Below, piece by piece: positions 28,081 through 49,068 of a stretch of DNA of 64,000 bases. Source of the stretch: an uncultured delta proteobacterium (lineage in GTDB: Bacteria > Desulfobacterota > RBG-13-43-22); NCBI GenBank assembly GCA_963790475.1, contig CAWBOS010000001.1, positions 192,529 to 256,528 of the forward strand, in the 5' to 3' direction. The position numbers and the translations under genes were made by a program. Every line of letters starts with the position of its first letter. Position 1 is the first letter of the stretch. Under the pieces are notes generated by a model. The model did no database searches and was not told the origin of the DNA. It worked only from the letters and a program-made list of their open reading frames with translations.

Positions 28081-28319
28081 ACCTTCATTATCAGTTGGAA
28101 GTTCTTGTCAATAGCTCCGGAAGCCGAATCGATCAGGCCCTGCCTGGGGCACAAAAGCCAAGTGCTAGCGGACAGTTTTACAGCCTGAGCGGCGGTTTCA
28201 CCGGCAACCCCTCCGTATTCATCCTAAAGTCCTCCAAATTTATTATCAACCAGCCGGATCATTCCATTGGGCGGAACTTTACCTTTCGAGGAAAGCCGAC
28301 CCGAGGAAAAAGGAGATCT

Positions 28320-29705
28320 ATGTCATTTTCATCTTTTGCACTTCACCCCCAACTATTAAAGGCCCTTGAAGAAAAGGGTTTTCATCAGCCCACTCCGATT
28401 CAGGAACTGGCCATCCCCGCCCTGCTACAGGGCAGTGATGTCATGGCTTCGGCCGTCACGGGAAGCGGCAAGACGGCCGCCTTTTTACTTCCCATCCTCC
28501 ATCAACTGATCGGACAGCCCCGGGGAAAAACCAGGGTACTGGTTCTGGTACCCACGCGGGAACTGGCCGTGCAGATTGCCGAGCATCTGCATGATCTGGC
28601 TTTGCATACCGCGTTGAAAGGCGCCGCCGTCTACGGAGGAGTCTCACCCGTTCCGCAGGAACAGGCTTTTAGAAAGGGAGTGGATTTTGTGATTGCCACG
28701 CCCGGACGCCTCCTGGACCATATGCGCAACAAATACGCCAAACTGGAGGGGTTAAGTCATCTTATTCTTGACGAAGCCGATCGTATGCTCGATATGGGAT
28801 TTCTCCCCGACATCCGTCGTATTCTGGACGGCATTCCGAAGAACCGTCAGACCCTTTTCTTTTCGGCCACACTTCCTCCACCGATTGTTGCCCTGGCCAG
28901 GGAGATGCTCAATAACCCGATTGCTCTCAATATCACGCCGAAACCGATACCGGCCTCACAAATCACCCATGTGGCCTATCCCGTGCCCCATGAATTAAAA
29001 TCAACCCTTCTGCTCGCCCTGCTTAAACAGAGTGCTACTAAGAGCGTCCTGGCCTTTACCCGGACCAAACACCGGGCCAACCGGCTGGCCGACTTTCTTG
29101 AAAAACACGGGGTCTCCTGTGCCCGGATACACGGCAACCGTAGTCAGAGTCAACGGACCGAGGCCCTGGCCGGATTCAAACGGGGGAGGTTCCGGGTCCT
29201 GGTGGCCACGGACATCGCCGCCCGGGGGATCGATGTGGAGGCCATTGGTCTGGTCTGCAACTTCGATGTGCCCCACCTGGCTGAAGAATACGTTCACCGG
29301 GTTGGCCGGACTGGCCGGGCCAGCGCTTCAGGGGATGCCTGCACCCTGGTTTCACCTGATGAAGAGCACACTTTCCGATCTATCGAACAGAATCTTGGAC
29401 GGCGAATGCCCCGGGAGACGGTCCAGGGATTTGATTATAAGAAGAGGCCATCGGAACGTTTCGAAATCCCTCTTAACGAGCGGATTGCCGCTATCCGGAC
29501 CCGGAAAGCCGGGGAACGGGCCCGCCACCAGGAAAAAGAGGAATCGAGAGGCCATAGACCAACCAGGGCGAATGGTTCGGTGTCCAAAGAGGTCTCCCAA
29601 CCCGGATTTGCCCGCGAGCACCGGGGAAACAGCACCATTTTCGGATTTTCCAAGGGGAAAGGAACGGCCTTAAGACGGCCTTCCCTGCAGGATCGATCGC
29701 GGTAG
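28320..29705 (+). CDS. rhlE: DEAD-box RNA helicase (RhlE-like)
   Basis: Q motif PTPIQ, TGSGKT, PTREL, TPGRL, DEAD, SAT, ARGID, HRVGRTGR; AGGAG RBS before ATG 28320. Confidence 0.9.
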   Translation: MSFSSFALHPQLLKALEEKGFHQPTPIQELAIPALLQGSDVMASAVTGSGKTAAFLLPILHQLIGQPRGKTRVLVLVPTRELAVQIAEHLHDLALHTALKGAAVYGGVSPVPQEQAFRKGVDFVIATPGRLLDHMRNKYAKLEGLSHLILDEADRMLDMGFLPDIRRILDGIPKNRQTLFFSATLPPPIVALAREMLNNPIALNITPKPIPASQITHVAYPVPHELKSTLLLALLKQSATKSVLAFTRTKHRANRLADFLEKHGVSCARIHGNRSQSQRTEALAGFKRGRFRVLVATDIAARGIDVEAIGLVCNFDVPHLAEEYVHRVGRTGRASASGDACTLVSPDEEHTFRSIEQNLGRRMPRETVQGFDYKKRPSERFEIPLNERIAAIRTRKAGERARHQEKEESRGHRPTRANGSVSKEVSQPGFAREHRGNSTIFGFSKGKGTALRRPSLQDRSR

Positions 29706-29758
29706 GCATCAGGCATTCAAACCTCTGTAATTAATAAGCGGAGAATCCATCATATTTT

Positions 29759-29789
29759 TGTAGGGGTCGGTTTAAATCCGGCCCCTACA
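29759..29789. repeat. REP-like hairpin GTAGGGG..CCCCTAC
   Basis: TGTAGGGGTCGGTTTAAATCCGGCCCCTACA palindrome. Confidence 0.55.
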
Positions 29790-29926
29790 GGGTGGGGGAG
29801 AACCTATTTATACCTTTACCGAAAAGAGGCAGTGGGTTGAACTTAGGAGAGGTTATTGAGTTTGACAATAACCCGTGTTAGATTATAATCGTCCTCAAAA
29901 ATATCCCTATTGGAAAAGGAGACATC

Positions 29927-30112
29927 ATGGATACAGAAAAGATAATGGATAATTTATTTAAGGAATTGGGGGTGGCCTTGAAGGCCATATCTACCGCCAA
30001 AACCGTAGAAGACAAAGTGGCCTACAGCGAAATTATTAAAAATTTAAGTGAATCCCTGGGAATTTTTCTGGATTTGGCCACCACGATCATGGAAGACGAA
30101 ATCGAAGACTAA
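29927..30112 (+). CDS. Small acidic hypothetical protein
   Basis: AGGAG RBS; TTGACA-16nt-TATAAT at 29862-29889. Confidence 0.65.
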   Translation: MDTEKIMDNLFKELGVALKAISTAKTVEDKVAYSEIIKNLSESLGIFLDLATTIMEDEIED

Positions 30113-30176
30113 CCTTATCACGATCCGTTTTAATACATTTAAGTTATGCATCAATTTAGCTTTTTGAAAACTGTTT

Positions 30177-30355
30177 TCACCGCAAAGGCGCAAAGAGCGC
30201 CAAGAGGAACTTTTATTGGCTGCCGGTGAGGGGCCGGCAATCAATACCCTTCTCTACCCACCAGGTAATTATTTGGACGGAGTCAGAGCTGTTTTATTCA
30301 ATCCCGCCTCTCACGGGATTGAACAAAAATGATTCTCTCTGCGTCCTTTGCGTCT
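30177..30355. repeat. Repeat family C copy interrupted by IS110 (remainder at 31954-31968)
   Basis: Rejoining the flanks gives CTTTGCGT-CT-TTGCGGTGAATAA, matching 23003-23025. Confidence 0.8.
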
Positions 30356-30414
30356 GGTTTATTGTTGTCAAGAGTTTTTTAAATATTATTAAACAAACTG
30401 GTAACTATCTTAGA

Positions 30415-30570
30415 GTGACACCTTGCCCAACTCTGGTAATTTGAGAGTCTCAACAGAGCTCTAACCTTGCTTTATTGGGGTTAAGGTGCAAGCGGAGAGT
30501 TATTTAAGCTCTGCGAGAAGGTCGACTTAGTCGCCTTAGATGCCGCAAACGATAATCTCTCCGCTTACAC
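30415..30570 (-). ncRNA. Candidate bridge RNA of IS110 element 1 (target loop 30490-30566, donor loop 30419-30488)
   Basis: Two stem/internal-loop/hairpin domains whose loop strands match the target and donor junction sequences. Confidence 0.7.
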
Positions 30571-30581
30571 GCTAAGAAGGT

Positions 30582-31841
30582 CTAAGCAGCCAGTTTTAAC
30601 GTTGCTCCTTTTGAATAATTTTCCATATATTCGTTATGATCACGCACCAAGGCAAAAATAACACCGAGAAGCTTCCGGGCAATGGCTACCAGGGCCTTGA
30701 TCTTGGGCATTCCTTGATCCAGATGCCTTTGATAGGCCGTATGCATCACTCCCCCTTTTCGAACCGTATTGATAGCGGCAAAAAAGAGGATTTTCCTAAG
30801 AAGCGACCGGCCTCTTTTGGATATATGACGATTCCCTTGGTGCCTTCCAGAACTGATTTCAAAGAGGTTCAGTCCGGCCAACTTCAGGACTTCAGCCAGC
30901 GTATGAAATTTACGAAAATCCCCGACTTCTCCAATCAGTCCGGCGGTGGTAACCTCTCCTATCCCTTTCAAGGACAGAATCGAATGACTATAGGGGATCT
31001 CGGGAAGAAGGGCCGCCATCTCCTGTTCCGCCTTCTCAATAAACTGGTCAGAAGATTCAATCTCAGAAAGAAGTTCTCGTATCTCAAAAAGAATCGCCTT
31101 GCGGCCTTCTTGAAGACCTACGGAATGGCCAGCGGCCGCATAAAGGGCCGGGGCTCGCTCTTTATCCAGCTTCCCTCGGCTAACCCGTCTCAGCGTGGCC
31201 CTCAAGGTCCCAAGACCACATTGGATAATATCTTCCGGGCACGGATAATGCCGCAACAGATATTGGGCACTGCGGGTTTTAATATTCTTCATCACTTGCA
31301 GAAACTCGGGGAAGACAATAAAGACCAAATCCTGAATCTGGTTCAAAAGGCCCGTTCGTCTTCGTATGGCTCTCTCCCTGGCATGGGTCAGTCGGCGAAG
31401 TTCAGCTGCCGCGCCTTCGGGAATGACCACGGTAAGGGCATGACCCAGCTCAATAATATCCGCAATGACTTTGGGATCTTTCCTATCCGTCTTATTGGGC
31501 GAGTTACCCTGGACTTCCTTCAACTTCTTCGTATGCATAGGATTAACCTGAACCAGTGTCACCGGCCGTTTCATCAGAAAATGTTGCAAGGGTTCTCCAT
31601 AAGACCCGGTGGATTCAAAACCAACCACGATTTCTTCCAAGTGATTGGCCTCTTTGGCCTCAACCATCCGATTCCAAAATTTCGTAAATCCTTGATCATT
31701 ATTGAAAAACTCAAAAGGTTTGATTTCCGTCCGGTCTGGACAGCGGCCATATCCCATATTGGTCGTTTTGCCTATGTCCACGGTACCGATAAGGGTTTTT
31801 TCATTGACCTTCTTAAGTTTTTTTGTTTCAATCTTATTCAT
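30582..31841 (-). CDS. IS110 family DEDD recombinase/transposase
   Basis: VDIGK, FESTG, KTDRKD, SSG catalytic Ser, SKRGRSLLR, ALVAIARKL. Confidence 0.95.
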   Translation of the reverse strand: MNKIETKKLKKVNEKTLIGTVDIGKTTNMGYGRCPDRTEIKPFEFFNNDQGFTKFWNRMVEAKEANHLEEIVVGFESTGSYGEPLQHFLMKRPVTLVQVNPMHTKKLKEVQGNSPNKTDRKDPKVIADIIELGHALTVVIPEGAAAELRRLTHARERAIRRRTGLLNQIQDLVFIVFPEFLQVMKNIKTRSAQYLLRHYPCPEDIIQCGLGTLRATLRRVSRGKLDKERAPALYAAAGHSVGLQEGRKAILFEIRELLSEIESSDQFIEKAEQEMAALLPEIPYSHSILSLKGIGEVTTAGLIGEVGDFRKFHTLAEVLKLAGLNLFEISSGRHQGNRHISKRGRSLLRKILFFAAINTVRKGGVMHTAYQRHLDQGMPKIKALVAIARKLLGVIFALVRDHNEYMENYSKGATLKLAA

Positions 31842-32000
31842 GGCTATACTCCTTTCCTTGGTTTGGGTTTAACCAACTTGCAAATTGGACCTCAAATCAA
31901 GAAAGAGTATAGCCTTTTTTGTACGGCTTAACTACTTTCTAAAATATAGCAAGCTTTGCGGTGAATAAAAATTCTTTTTTCAAACAAAAGTGTTACTAAG

Positions 32001-32357
32001 TTACCAGAGGCGAAGGATGACCTGGTCGCCTACTTTTTCTCCACGGGCCTTTTCCATGTGCCTCAGGGAGGCGAATTCCCGTTCCAGTTCTTTAGGAGTG
32101 ATGTTCAACTCCCGGCAGAGGATATCCGATCTGACTCCGCCGTTTTCCTTTAAATAGGCCAGAATTTTTGCCTGGAGTTCGTTGAACTGATCGCCGGAGC
32201 CCATTTGTTCCAGGCGCTTGGCGGAATGAACCGCCCAGGGGTCGCAGGCCTTCAGGGGTGATAAGGCATCCATATAACAATCCTCGCACAAGGTTTGGCC
32301 GAGCAGGTCTCTTTCCTCGCCGGTATCAATGGCCTGACCACATTTTTGGCAGTGCAT
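32001..32357 (-). CDS. Hypothetical protein (CxxC..CxxC Zn-ribbon + winged HTH)
   Basis: CQKC...LCEDC, CDPWAV, LEREFASLRHME. Confidence 0.75.
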   Translation of the reverse strand: MHCQKCGQAIDTGEERDLLGQTLCEDCYMDALSPLKACDPWAVHSAKRLEQMGSGDQFNELQAKILAYLKENGGVRSDILCRELNITPKELEREFASLRHMEKARGEKVGDQVILRLW

Positions 32358-32865
32358 AAAATAACCTCCTTAGACATAATAGGTCGTAAAGTCATCAAAA
32401 CTGTCAACGGCGGGGCTGAAGTCAGTCTCTCGGCGGGATTAATGGAAATAGACTTTTGACGACTTATTACGAGTTTGCAAGGTTTGAGCATATCAAATAT
32501 TGATAGGGATGGCAAATCCCTTTTCCAATCGCTTCCTCTTGAGCCTCCCCAGGGGATTTAGTCCCCTTCTATTTTTTGTGGGTATTCCCACTTGACAATC
32601 CCGTTCCTTTTTTTTATCATTCAAAAAAAATGAAAGAGAGATTAACCATAAAAAAAGTCCAAAAAGGTCTTTCTCAGTCAGGAACCGTCAAGCGGGATTC
32701 CTTTGCAAAATATGTCGACGAATGATCGCCGGATTTTCTGGTATTACGGTCCTCATAAGAATCAAATAACCATCGCCGCTATTACCCCCCACCGATAACC
32801 TCGGAAAAATCGGTTTTAAGAAAACCGGTTGCCCAAGGGTGTTTTTAGATAGAAAGGGAACTCTT

Positions 32866-47997: not shown

Positions 47998-49068
47998 TTA
48001 TTGAACTACACCAGGCACATATTCCACCTGGTTCTTTAACACATAACGAATGCGGTTGAGCAGTTTCCGGGCGATCTTGATAATGGCCCTGGTTTTCTTC
48101 ATCCGTTGGCAATATTCATTAAAGGCCAAAAGCAGGACCGGGTCCTTGCGGGCCGCCACCCAGGCGGCTTCGATGAGCAAAGCCCTTAATTGGGGGTTTC
48201 GCCGGTGGGTTAAGTTTTTTATATGTTCGGTCTCCCCACTGGATTCGACATCGGGGATTAATCCGACATAACTGGCCAACTTGTCGAGGGAGGCAAAGCG
48301 GGCCAACTCACCCAGCTCGGTCAGGAAAATCATGGCCGCCAGGGTACTGATCCCCGGGATCGTTTTTAACAACCGGACCATTTCGCGATATTCTGCTTCC
48401 CGGGCAAGCAAAATGATGGACCGGTTTAAAGAAGCGATGATCCGTTTCAGATGATGGAGTTCGTCCAAGTGGGCCTTGAGGGCCACATCGCCACTGGTCC
48501 GCTCCATACGAAGATTTTCGAGACAGCCAAGAAATTTTTGAGACCAATGGCGGTCAACAACTTCTTCGGGCAGAGTAATCCCATAGAAGTAAAGGAGCGC
48601 CTTAATTTGATTTTTACACCGGGTTTGCTTTCTCACCATACTTTGGCGGGTTCGAACCAGACTGCGATCCTCCAGCTTCGGACGGCTCGGGACGTAAATC
48701 CCTTTCAGTTCCCCGCTCCGGAGGCTCCTGCCCAGCTTGCGGCTGTCGGTTCGATCCCGCCTAGTGGTCCGTTCTTTATTGGTCGTCGGGACATCGGCCG
48801 GGTTGACCACGATGCAATTCACCCCTTTTTCCTGAAGCTGATCGTGAGCCCAGAAGCCGCTAAACCCGGCCTCATAGGCCGCCTGATAGCTCGCTCCAGG
48901 AAAGTTCTTTCGAAGATAATGGACCAGTTTGTCTGCTTCTGGAGGTTGGGTAAAAGTCTTATGCTCGCACTGTCTAGAAAAAATGCTCACGCTCCAACTC
49001 TTCTTGTGGACATCCAGTCCCACGTAAATCGATTGACCCGAAAAATCCAATTTGTTAATCTGTACCAC
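47998..49068 (-). CDS. IS110 family DEDD recombinase/transposase
   Basis: VGLDVHK, YEAG, RDRTD, IPGIS, YVGLIP..ESSG, IARKL. Confidence 0.95.
   Translation of the reverse strand: MVQINKLDFSGQSIYVGLDVHKKSWSVSIFSRQCEHKTFTQPPEADKLVHYLRKNFPGASYQAAYEAGFSGFWAHDQLQEKGVNCIVVNPADVPTTNKERTTRRDRTDSRKLGRSLRSGELKGIYVPSRPKLEDRSLVRTRQSMVRKQTRCKNQIKALLYFYGITLPEEVVDRHWSQKFLGCLENLRMERTSGDVALKAHLDELHHLKRIIASLNRSIILLAREAEYREMVRLLKTIPGISTLAAMIFLTELGELARFASLDKLASYVGLIPDVESSGETEHIKNLTHRRNPQLRALLIEAAWVAARKDPVLLLAFNEYCQRMKKTRAIIKIARKLLNRIRYVLKNQVEYVPGVVQ

What the first reader, a model, noticed from the sequence alone, without database searches (positions are those of the whole stretch)
30354..31955. IS110 element 1: RNA-guided recombination system readable from sequence
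Seen: the element interrupts a family C repeat at a CT core (target TTTGCGT-CT-TTGCGG; circle junction TAGCAAG-CT-GGTTT). Circularisation assembles TTGACA-17-TATATT. Downstream of the recombinase, the same strand folds into two loop domains. The target loop carries GCATCT (vs GCGTCT) and CGCAGAG (pairs CTTTGCG with one G-T wobble). The donor loop carries AGCAAGGT (vs AGCAAGCT) and ACCAG (pairs CTGGT). Known: IS621 bridge RNAs use such paired guides and a CT core. Unusual here: the RNA is 3' of the gene without obvious subterminal IRs, and the guides read the strand opposite the recombinase, so the core is AG in gene orientation. The guide matches are short and imperfect. Inference: a programmable bridge recombinase of a distinct architecture.
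Basis: partly seen in the sequence, partly recalled or inferred. Interest (0 to 1): 0.85.

Follow-up and report, generated by a model that had tools for sequence, protein, structure and literature searches.

The report
Insertion sequence with downstream bridge RNA
This is an active mobile element whose recombinase is steered by a small RNA encoded just after the gene, a layout already described for related elements in 2024, so it is a clear natural example rather than a new kind of system.

Summary
Window 30354-31955 is a 1600-bp IS110-family element plus a repeated CT core. The genome has 10 copies, 9 identical and 1 at 99.94%, all at ...TTTGCGT|CT|YYG... in a REP-like repeat. Joining the ends gives TTGACA-17-TATATT on the gene strand.

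The 148 nt after the recombinase gene (30418-30565, minus strand) form two stem/internal-loop/hairpin domains. Across 24 homologous RNAs, 26 of 39 pairs show compensatory changes and 98.3% of cells pair.

The first loop's guides covary with each element's own flanks:
- 3' guide: 4.54 of 6 matches against 1.97 when permuted.
- 5' guide: longest complementary run 6.74 against 3.33.
- No permutation reached either value (0 of 20000 each).

The second loop matches the invariant element ends. So it is a bridge (seek) RNA system.

The "distinct architecture" is not new. A downstream RNA and reversed guide order were published for IS1111-type elements (PMC11208160, PMC11187229).

Extras:
- A handshake-like base after the donor guide equals the first flank base in 25 of 27 sites.
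- In this genome only sites with T at that position are occupied (10 of 10, against 19 of 110 empty sites).
- The antisense frame of the gene is open in 15 of 21 homologs.

The parts
30354..31955 (-). Whole insertion sequence: 1600 bp plus the CT core present at both junctions (AG in gene orientation)
   Evidence: 10 copies with identical ends in the own genome. A contig joint skips exactly 1600 bases.
30354..30355 (.). Core dinucleotide CT at the junction next to the right end (gene orientation)
   Evidence: AG precedes the left end in 23 of 23 homolog loci where the flank is visible.
31954..31955 (.). Core dinucleotide CT at the junction next to the left end (gene orientation)
30582..31841 (-). 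Recombinase gene, 419 aa, DEDD RuvC-like domain plus Tnp domain
   Evidence: PF01548 at 2.5e-24, PF02371 at 5.7e-20, NF033542 at 216 bits. E76, D119, D122 and S331 align with the catalytic motifs of IS621 chain 8wt6_A.
31842..31953 (-). Short left end (112 nt). It starts CTTGCTATATT and carries the -10 half (TATATT, 31948-31943) of the junction promoter.
30356..30581 (-). Long right end (226 nt) holding the bridge RNA. It ends ...TTGACAACAATAAACC, with the -35 half TTGACA at 30371-30366.
30418..30565 (-). Bridge RNA core: target-binding domain 30491-30565 and donor-binding domain 30418-30489
   Evidence: Consensus structure of 24 homologs: 39 pairs, 26 with compensatory change, 98.3% of cells paired, and 0 of 500 shuffles reach the observed percentage paired, pairs or cells changed on both sides, or covariation score.
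30542..30549 (-). Target loop, 5' guide UUUGCGGC. It pairs with the gene-strand DNA of the core G plus the flank beside the right end (7 of 8 here, mismatch at the first flank base).
   Evidence: Register taken from homologs. Cognate longest run 6.74 against 3.33 permuted.
30538..30543 (-). It overlaps the conserved CAU(CU) linker. An alternative bulged register would pair UCU with the first flank base and the core.
   Evidence: Not resolved.
30509..30515 (-). Target loop, 3' guide CGCAGAG. It has the same sense as the flank beside the left end plus the AG core (perfect for CCGCAG sites, one G-T wobble for CCGCAA sites).
30506..30508 (-). CUU after the 3' target guide, equal to the first three bases of the left end (handshake-like)
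   Evidence: CTT in 14 of 24 guide sets, and C first in 23 of the 23 sets where it could be read.
30464..30471 (-). Donor loop, 5' guide AGCAAG(GU), complementary to the left-end start CTTGCT
   Evidence: Invariant in 24 of 24 homolog RNAs, alongside an invariant left end.
30433..30437 (-). Donor loop, 3' guide ACCAG, same sense as the right-end terminus ACC plus the AG core
   Evidence: Invariant in 24 of 24.
30432..30432 (-). Handshake-like A after ACCAG, equal to the first base of the flank beside the right end
   Evidence: Matches in 25 of 27 sites and 15 of 17 guide sets (2 of 20000 permutations reach this). In the own genome, occupancy goes with T at this position in window orientation.
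30360..30363 (.). Residual subterminal inverted repeat TATT, partner at 31943-31946
   Evidence: The repeat is 5-8 bp and covaries in homologs.
30300..30353 (+). Left part of the REP-like host repeat (hairpin plus the TTTGCGT half of the target)
   Evidence: 48 genome matches to the query, mostly to its first 56 bases. Target census.

Best explanation
This is a currently or recently active IS110-family insertion sequence that moves by bridge-RNA (seekRNA)-guided recombination.

Proposed cycle:
1. The element excises as a circle.
2. Joining its ends at the CT/AG core assembles a strong promoter, TTGACA-17-TATATT.
3. The promoter transcribes the 419-aa DEDD/Tnp recombinase gene and, downstream on the same transcript, a bispecific RNA of about 150 nt. 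The RNA is then presumably processed out.

Target loop (first internal loop):
- The 5' side pairs with the gene-strand DNA of the core G plus about 7 bases of the flank that ends up beside the right end.
- The 3' side has the sequence of the other flank plus AG, and so pairs with the opposite strand.

Donor loop (second internal loop): it reads the circle junction in the same way, with AGCAAG against the left-end start and ACCAG against the right-end terminus plus core.

Handshake-like bases: one to three bases following each 3' guide match the partner DNA across the future junction, like the handshake guides of IS621.

[quoted passage not shown] The layout of short left end, long right end with the RNA, and reversed guide order relative to the gene is the one published for IS1111-type elements.

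Shown here: copy number, ends, target, conserved RNA structure, guide-flank covariation, promoter geometry, and conserved catalytic motifs.

Inferred: circle formation, transcription and processing of the RNA, and the chemistry.
For: - Ten copies with the same ends and target, 9 identical in sequence and 1 at 99.94%.
- Protein families and catalytic motifs.
- RNA structure: 26 of 39 pairs have compensatory changes and 98.3% of cells pair, against 35-48% when the partners are slid. No shuffle of 500 reaches the observed values.
- Strand: 42 cells are one-sided G-U type changes. These would be A-C mispairs on the other strand, so the RNA is on the gene strand.
- Guide-flank covariation over 24 distinct guide sets from 43 RNA-bearing rows (42 homolog loci and the window's own copy):
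  - 3' target guide: cognate identity 4.44 of 6 (n=34) against 1.89 non-cognate (n=748).
  - 5' loop: longest complementary run 6.93 (n=27) against 3.05 (n=621).
  - Permuting the site sets never reaches the observed means (0 of 20000 for each).
- The donor guide cores AGCAAG and ACCAG are invariant in 24 of 24 RNAs. The element ends CTTGCTAT... and ...AACC are conserved likewise.
- The base after ACCAG equals the first flank base in 25 of 27 sites.
- Own-genome census: 10 of 10 occupied sites have T at window-orientation position 7. Of 110 unoccupied near-matches with an intact core, 19 have T (Fisher p = 1.7e-7).
- The composite promoter is conserved in 21 of 22 end pairs.
- The scan found no sigma-70-like promoter on the gene strand and no terminator inside the linear copy, which fits junction-dependent expression.
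- Contigs from one RNA library cover 30336-30559. This is weak, because such contigs may derive from DNA.
- Published precedent: PMC11208160, PMC11187229, PMC11208158.
Against: - There is no direct evidence here of the RNA, the circle or the activity. The laid runs are contigs only, and no circle junction was seen.
- The donor loop cannot be tested by covariation, because the ends do not vary in this clade.
- The 5' target guide of this copy mismatches its real sites at the first flank base (G opposite A). It would fit perfectly the commonest repeat variant in the genome, which is never occupied.
- The register of the 5' guide shifts by one or two bases in some homologs (loci L042, L046, L051, L060, L062).
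- The core C is not matched by the 5' donor guide (GU, AU or AA in place of CU).
Confidence: 0.9

Rival explanations
1. Same system, but the 5' target guide works in the reader's register or a bulged register. UUUGCG pairs with the flank, GCA bulges out, and UCU pairs with the first flank base and the core. On this reading the target loop itself specifies the T next to the core.
For: This gives 9 of 9 pairs with the real sites. It also explains why only T-bearing sites are occupied.
Against: L041 has the same 13-nt loop type ending in CAUCU. It fits the standard register perfectly (8 of 8), and its UCU does not match its own flank. CAU is conserved in most homologs whatever their target.
Confidence: 0.25
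2. The element is an ordinary member of the IS1111 group proper, not a separate lineage of the IS110 group that carries a 3' RNA.
For: RNA in the long right end, a short left end, the top-strand match 5' of the bottom-strand match, and a covarying subterminal repeat of 5-8 bp in homologs. These fit the descriptions in PMC11208160 and PMC11187229.
Against: - The recombinase is 419 aa, against 330-350 aa given for IS1111 transposases (PMC11187229 section 6).
- The repeat is only 4 bp in this copy and mostly below the quoted 7-17 bp range.
- The donor loop is a simple internal loop, whereas many IS1111 RNAs are said to use a multi-loop.
- No tree was made.
Confidence: 0.3
3. The structured 3' region is only a terminator, a stabiliser or a protein-binding site, and the protein alone selects the target.
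For: No RNA or activity data were obtained here.
Against: The loop sequences change together with the flanks across 24 guide sets, while the stems are kept by compensatory changes. There is no terminator-like site.
Confidence: 0.03

Closest known systems
IS621 bridge RNA system (IS110 group; Durrant 2024, Hiraizumi 2024)
   Same: - DEDD plus Tnp recombinase with the same catalytic motifs.
- One RNA with the target loop first and the donor loop second.
[quoted passage not shown]
- The CT core is shared.
- Handshake positions lie next to the 3' guides.
- The promoter is assembled at the junction.
- The target is REP-like.
   Different: - The RNA lies after the gene, not before it.
- The DNA frame is flipped relative to transcription, giving AG in gene orientation.
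- The recombinase is 419 aa against a 328-residue chain, with only local similarity (E = 4e-8).
- The 3' guides are longer, at 7-8 nt.
IS1111-type seekRNA / bridge RNA elements (ISEc11, ISPa11, ISKpn4; Siddiquee 2024, Durrant 2024)
   Same: - Downstream non-coding region encoding the RNA.
- Short left end and long right end.
- The top-strand match lies 5' of the bottom-strand match.
- Junction promoter.
- Subterminal inverted repeats flank the donor bases.
   Different: - Transposases are given as 330-350 aa, against 419 aa here.
- Repeats are given as 7-17 bp, against 4 bp here and 4-8 bp in homologs.
- The donor site here is a simple internal loop.
- Relatedness across the full protein length was not tested.
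ISPpu9 / ISPpu10 of Pseudomonas putida (IS110 group; PMC12288879)
   Same: Inserts into REP sequences. The crossover is at an invariant AG in element orientation. Circles form.
   Different: There the bridge RNA is upstream in the long 5' UTR. ISPpu9 has a strong native promoter and no junction-promoter effect (passages).
IS900 of Mycobacterium avium subsp. paratuberculosis (IS110 family), hed ORF
   Same: A long open frame on the strand complementary to the transposase gene, running through the element (PMC8141618 passage; here).
   Different: IS900 is a high-GC element, where such frames arise easily. Here the frame stays open in genes of 39-48% GC. No expression or function is known in either case.

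Membership tests
IS110 family (RNA-guided DEDD recombinase elements) | Recombinase with DEDD_Tnp_IS110 and Transposase_20 domains | tested here: met
   PF01548 at 86 bits, PF02371 at 72 bits, NF033542 at 216 bits against a cut-off of 140.
IS110 family (RNA-guided DEDD recombinase elements) | Catalytic D, E, D, D of the RuvC-like domain and the Ser of the SG motif | tested here: met
   E76, D119, D122 and S331 align with the IEATG, KTDxxD and SG motifs of IS621 chain 8wt6_A (residue roles from PMC11208158). The first D (D22) is inferred only from where the Pfam match starts.
IS110 family (RNA-guided DEDD recombinase elements) | Site-specific insertion at a short core, without a longer target duplication and without terminal inverted repeats | tested here: met
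   10 of 10 copies sit at the same site with only CT shared by both junctions. A joint skipping exactly 1600 bases is seen in a contig.
IS110 family (RNA-guided DEDD recombinase elements) | Non-coding RNA with a loop whose two sides covary with the two strands of the target | tested here: met
   (0 of 20000 permutations for either guide). Structure.
IS110 family (RNA-guided DEDD recombinase elements) | A second loop complementary to the donor (circle junction) | tested here: inconclusive
   AGCAAG and ACCAG match the ends and are invariant in 24 of 24 RNAs. The ends are also invariant, so covariation cannot be tested.
IS110 family (RNA-guided DEDD recombinase elements) | Circular intermediate with a junction promoter, and RNA bound to the recombinase | not testable with these tools
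   The promoter geometry is present and conserved. No circle junction appears in the laid contigs.
IS1111 group | RNA-coding non-coding region downstream of tnp; short left end and long right end | tested here: met
   Left end 112 nt, right end 226 nt holding the RNA.
IS1111 group | Top-strand match 5' of bottom-strand match in the RNA | tested here: met
   The 5' guide is complementary to the gene-strand DNA and the 3' guide to the other strand. The criterion comes from PMC11187229 sections 9 and 12.
IS1111 group | Subterminal inverted repeats of 7-17 bp | tested here: not met
   This copy has 4 bp (TATT/AATA). At the same offsets the longest exact repeat is 4-6 bp in 11 of the 21 homolog end pairs and 8 bp in one (L070); in the other 9 the longest repeat found lies elsewhere. 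The repeat covaries (TATTG with CAATA, TGTTG with CAACA), so a short one is real.
IS1111 group | Transposase of 330-350 aa related to that of IS1111 over its full length | not tested
   The length of 419 aa falls outside the quoted range. No labelled IS1111 reference could be obtained: annotated hits carried only generic names. No tree was made.
IS110 group in the narrow sense (IS621-like layout) | Bridge RNA in a long left end upstream of the gene | tested here: not met
   The left end is 112 nt and the conserved RNA lies downstream.

The most novel reading that the evidence does not exclude
The clade of about 410-430-aa recombinases may be a third architectural type between IS110 and IS1111. 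It includes a 35.6%-identical Lachnospira relative with the same short-left, long-right layout and AG core. Its features:
- an IS621-like RNA with two simple internal loops and handshake positions;
- the RNA encoded after the gene and reading the flipped DNA frame;
- only a 4-8-bp subterminal repeat.

In this type the handshake base of the donor loop, rather than the target loop, would decide which base is accepted next to the core. That would explain why the commonest repeat variant, which fits the target loop perfectly, is never occupied. The conserved antisense frame might also encode a second product.
Probability: 0.3. Interest if true: 0.55.

Novelty: new member of a known kind. Interest (0 to 1): 0.32.

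Why it matters
The system itself is established biology since 2024, so the value here is as material.

- The family offers a compact, well-resolved guide code: fixed anchors, an 8-nt 5' guide and a 7-8-nt 3' guide. There are two dozen natural reprogrammings and invariant donor ends. This makes it a convenient candidate for testing 3'-encoded bridge recombinases, which have been studied far less than IS621-type ones.
- The own-genome census is a natural specificity experiment. It suggests that the base next to the core is read by the handshake nucleotide rather than by the target loop, which is directly testable.
- The element's burst into a REP-like repeat (10 copies, 9 identical and 1 at 99.94%, with only 2 perfect sites left empty) shows how such elements saturate their targets.

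Tried and rejected
- Rfam scan of 29500-32800 at E up to 1: only two chance-level hits outside the element, and no family covers the RNA.
- Promoter and terminator scan of 30250-32050: nothing on the gene strand, 0 terminators.
- Sequencing runs: all 20 listed runs are kept as Logan contigs. Four were laid.
  - No circle junction was seen.
  - Contigs from the RNA libraries cover the RNA region and flank. Of the gene they cover only short stretches (one bin in X19 and 30750-30926 in X20).
  - Contigs show neither strand nor level, so the lack of cover elsewhere means nothing. The cover that exists is only a weak hint.
- Covariance model R1: it finds only the 10 copies in the own genome. It finds nothing in the Klebsiella, Shigella or Lachnospira loci. 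It finds matches in 8 of 151 sampled genomes of the phylum, the own genome included.
- Phylogenetic placement against named IS110 and IS1111 references was not done. The plasmid tblastn gave 2653 records, the best at 35.6% identity. The regions I opened were annotated only as "IS110 family transposase".
Supplementary Table 5 and the data files of PMC11208160, and the supplementary trees of PMC11187229, may already list this clade. I cannot say it is absent from print.
- Long subterminal inverted repeats: none of 9 nt or more links the two ends.
- RNA on the plus strand: rejected, because 42 G-U type cells would become A-C mispairs.
- Lachnospira relative. An empty site in a second strain fixes its ends at 1841 bp, with a left end of 119 nt, a right end of 428 nt and an AG core. 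Its right end holds a 9-nt word equal to the left junction and an 8-nt word equal to the right junction. 7-mer matches number 18 against 3.5 in shuffles (2 of 500 shuffles reach 18). I did not work out its RNA fold.
Full report
WHAT IS THERE. Window 30354-31955 holds an insertion sequence with one gene on the minus strand (31841-30582, 419 aa). The protein carries the two IS110-family domains: PF01548 at 2.5e-24 and PF02371 at 5.7e-20. It also matches NCBIfam NF033542, "IS110 family RNA-guided transposase", at 216 bits against a cut-off of 140. Its nearest solved relatives are the IS621 and ISCro4 recombinases (E = 4e-8 and 1e-5). In those alignments E76, D119, D122 and S331 fall on the IEATG, KTDxxD and SG motifs of IS621. 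The catalytic roles of those motifs are given in PMC11208158 (passages).

COPIES, ENDS, TARGET. The window's own genome (20 contigs, 6.34 Mb) holds 10 full-length copies, 9 identical and 1 at 99.94%. All 10 have the same ends. In window orientation they all read ...GCGT | CT-GGTTTATTG ... ATAGCAAG-CT | YYGYG... The element is therefore 1600 bp plus a CT that stands at both junctions.

The target lies in a REP-like repeat, a hairpin followed by two similar octamers. A contig from one run joins 30352 to 31953 and skips exactly 1600 bases. That is the uninterrupted repeat.

PROMOTER. On the gene strand the right end supplies TTGACA and the left end supplies TATATT. After joining at the core the spacer is 17 (read). 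The same composite, TTGAC[AT]-17-TAT[AG]TT, is found in 21 of 22 distinct end pairs of homologs. The consensus scan found no sigma-70-like promoter on the gene strand and no terminator inside the linear copy. This fits expression that depends on the circle, as published for this family (PMC12288879 introduction).

THE RNA. The 232 nt after the stop codon fold on the gene strand at -67.9 kcal/mol, with z = -4.9.

A scan of one genome per species returned 43 loci that encode relatives. Identities run from 46% to 67%, with one partial hit at 26%. The hosts are Nitrospirota, Desulfobacterota and several other phyla. Their ends are nearly invariant:
- AG | CTTGCTAT(A/G)TT at the left end. AG precedes it in 23 of 23 loci where the flank is visible.
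- TTGACA..AATAAACC | AG at the right end.

An alignment of 24 distinct downstream regions gives a consensus of two domains. Each domain is an outer stem, an internal loop and an inner hairpin.
- Of 39 pairs, 26 show changes on both sides that keep the pair.
- 98.3% of cells pair, against 35-48% when the partners are slid by 1-3 columns.
- None of 500 shuffles reaches the observed percentage paired, pairs or cells changed on both sides, or covariation score.
- Forty-two cells are one-sided G-U type changes. They would be mispairs on the other strand, so the RNA is on the gene strand.

In the window the RNA core is 30418-30565.

GUIDES. In the alignment the stems are conserved and the two sides of the first loop are hypervariable.

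The 3' side ends in AG. The six bases before that AG have the sequence of the flank beside the left end:
- this element: CGCAG-AG;
- L042: AUGCGG-AG against flank ATGCGG;
- L046: UUCGU-AG against TTCGT;
- L062: CACGA-AG against CACGA;
- L067: AAUUUU-AG against AATTTT;
- and so on.

The 5' side follows the conserved GAUUAUC. Positions 2-8 are the reverse complement of the first seven bases of the other flank. Position 9, the C of a conserved CAU, faces the core G:
- L035: CCCUCCCC against G+GGGAGGG;
- L041: UUCGCGCC against G+GCGCGAA;
- L054: UUGAAUCC against G+GATTCAA.

Statistics over the 24 distinct guide sets:

| Measure | Cognate | Non-cognate |
|---|---|---|
| 3' guide, identity out of 6 | 4.44 (n=34 site pairs) | 1.89 (n=748) |
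| 5' loop, longest complementary run | 6.93 (n=27) | 3.05 (n=621) |

Permuting which site set goes with which guide set gives 0 of 20000 permutations as high as the observed value for either guide (21 and 17 guide sets).

Results against a simple fixed register: the 5' guide is shifted by one or two bases in L042, L046, L051, L060 and L062.

The second loop carries AGCAAG, complementary to the left-end start CTTGCT. It also carries ACCAG, the right-end terminus ACC plus AG. Both words are invariant in 24 of 24 RNAs, as are the ends. This agrees with a donor loop but cannot be tested by covariation. The core C is not matched by the 5' donor guide (GU, AU or AA).

HANDSHAKE-LIKE BASES. The base after ACCAG equals the first base of the flank beside the right end in 25 of 27 sites and 15 of 17 guide sets. 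Only 2 of 20000 permutations reach this. The exceptions are L071 and one site of L046. The three bases after the 3' target guide are CUU, the first bases of the left end, in 14 of 24 sets. Each 3' guide therefore runs on into the partner DNA across the future junction. IS621 has handshake guides at the equivalent places, next to its right target and right donor guides (PMC11208158 passages).

A NATURAL EXPERIMENT. In this genome the exact 15-mer target is left unoccupied only twice. Among unoccupied sites identical at the other 14 positions, position 7 in window orientation (the base before CT) is G 18 times, C 10 times, A 5 times and T twice. The four occupied sites of that class all have T. 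Over all sites, 10 of 10 occupied have T, against 19 of 110 unoccupied near-matches with an intact core (Fisher p = 1.7e-7).

The 5' target guide of this element has G at the matching place. It mismatches the real sites, and it would fit the G variant, which is the commonest and is never occupied. The handshake-like A after ACCAG does match T. So either the handshake base sets specificity at that position, or the loop pairs in a bulged register, UUUGCG[GCA]UCU. The data do not settle the matter.

COMPARISON WITH WHAT IS KNOWN. In IS621 the first loop reads the target and the second the donor. [quoted passage not shown] The core CT is included (PMC11208160 passages). If the window's plus strand is taken as the top strand, the present RNA follows that scheme point for point. 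The gene and the RNA, however, are on the other strand, and the RNA follows the gene.

It is not new.
- Durrant et al. describe IS1111-group elements with short left ends, long right ends and the bridge RNA in the right end.
- Siddiquee et al. purified seekRNAs from the downstream region of four IS1111-type elements. [quoted passage not shown] They also note that some IS110-type elements have a 3' non-coding region.
- A 2026 review repeats this (PMC13604230 passages).
- ISPpu9 recombines at AG in element orientation.

WHICH GROUP. By RNA position, end lengths and guide order the element behaves like the IS1111 type. By the classical criterion it does not. Subterminal repeats of 7-17 bp are expected, and this copy has 4 bp. 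In 12 of the 21 homolog end pairs the longest terminal inverted repeat, 4-8 bp, lies at the same offsets. That repeat is real because it covaries: TATTG with CAATA, and TGTTG with CAACA. The recombinase is 419 aa, outside the 330-350 aa given for IS1111 transposases. The donor loop is a simple internal loop, whereas many IS1111 RNAs are said to use a multi-loop.

A Lachnospira plasmid relative at 35.6% identity has its ends fixed by an empty site in a second strain. It shows the same layout: left end 119 nt, right end 428 nt and an AG core. Its right end holds words equal to both junctions. I made no tree with labelled references, so the placement stays open.

VERDICT. The claim of a distinct architecture is not supported. 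This is a clear, active, well-resolved new member of a known kind. Its features are intermediate between the two described groups, and it offers a testable hint about the handshake base.

Noticed in passing
window 30636-31931 (+), antisense to the recombinase gene: The codon-aligned antisense frame is open for 431 aa here. It is open for at least 400 codons in 15 of 21 homologs, including genes of 39-40% GC. The own gene has 2 TTA/CTA/TCA codons where genome usage predicts about 8. Only 4 of 821 long ORFs of the genome lack them over 400 codons. IS900 of the same family has the enigmatic 'hed' ORF on the complementary strand (PMC8141618 passage).
   Followed up: partly
own genome; target 15-mer centred on window 30347-30355 and 31956-31961: The IS has filled almost all perfect targets: 4 occupied against 2 empty. 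It never sits in the commoner repeat variants with G, C or A before the core (33 sites identical at the other 14 positions).
   Followed up: yes
flanks of OWN, L041, L052, L060, L062, L065 and others: In about half of the homologs the target is an imperfect tandem pair of octamers, each ending in AG (here CCGCAAAG then ACGCAAAG in gene orientation). The two target guides are therefore complementary to each other and pair in the minimum-energy fold of the free RNA.
   Followed up: no
window 47998-49068 (-): A second, different IS110-family gene (356-aa ORF, PF01548 at 49 bits) has a twin on contig C13. The genome also has three copies of a 401-aa type. None of them matches the RNA model R1.
   Followed up: partly
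L076 1380-3220 (Lachnospira eligens plasmid) and L099: A 1841-bp relative (429-aa recombinase, 35.6% identity) is present in one strain and precisely absent in another. It has an AG core, a junction promoter TTGATT-17-TATAAT read by eye, and right-end words equal to both junctions.
   Followed up: partly
L046, L047, L048: Two copies (L046, L048) share 260 nt of left flank but differ in the right flank beyond the first ten bases. A third copy (L047) sits at a site lacking the GG that follows the core in the other two. This suggests rearrangement between copies, or a flexible register.
   Followed up: no
window 28095-29705 (+): The upstream neighbour is a DEAD-box helicase-like ORF (the DEAD motif is visible in the translation). 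I see no functional link to the element.
   Followed up: no
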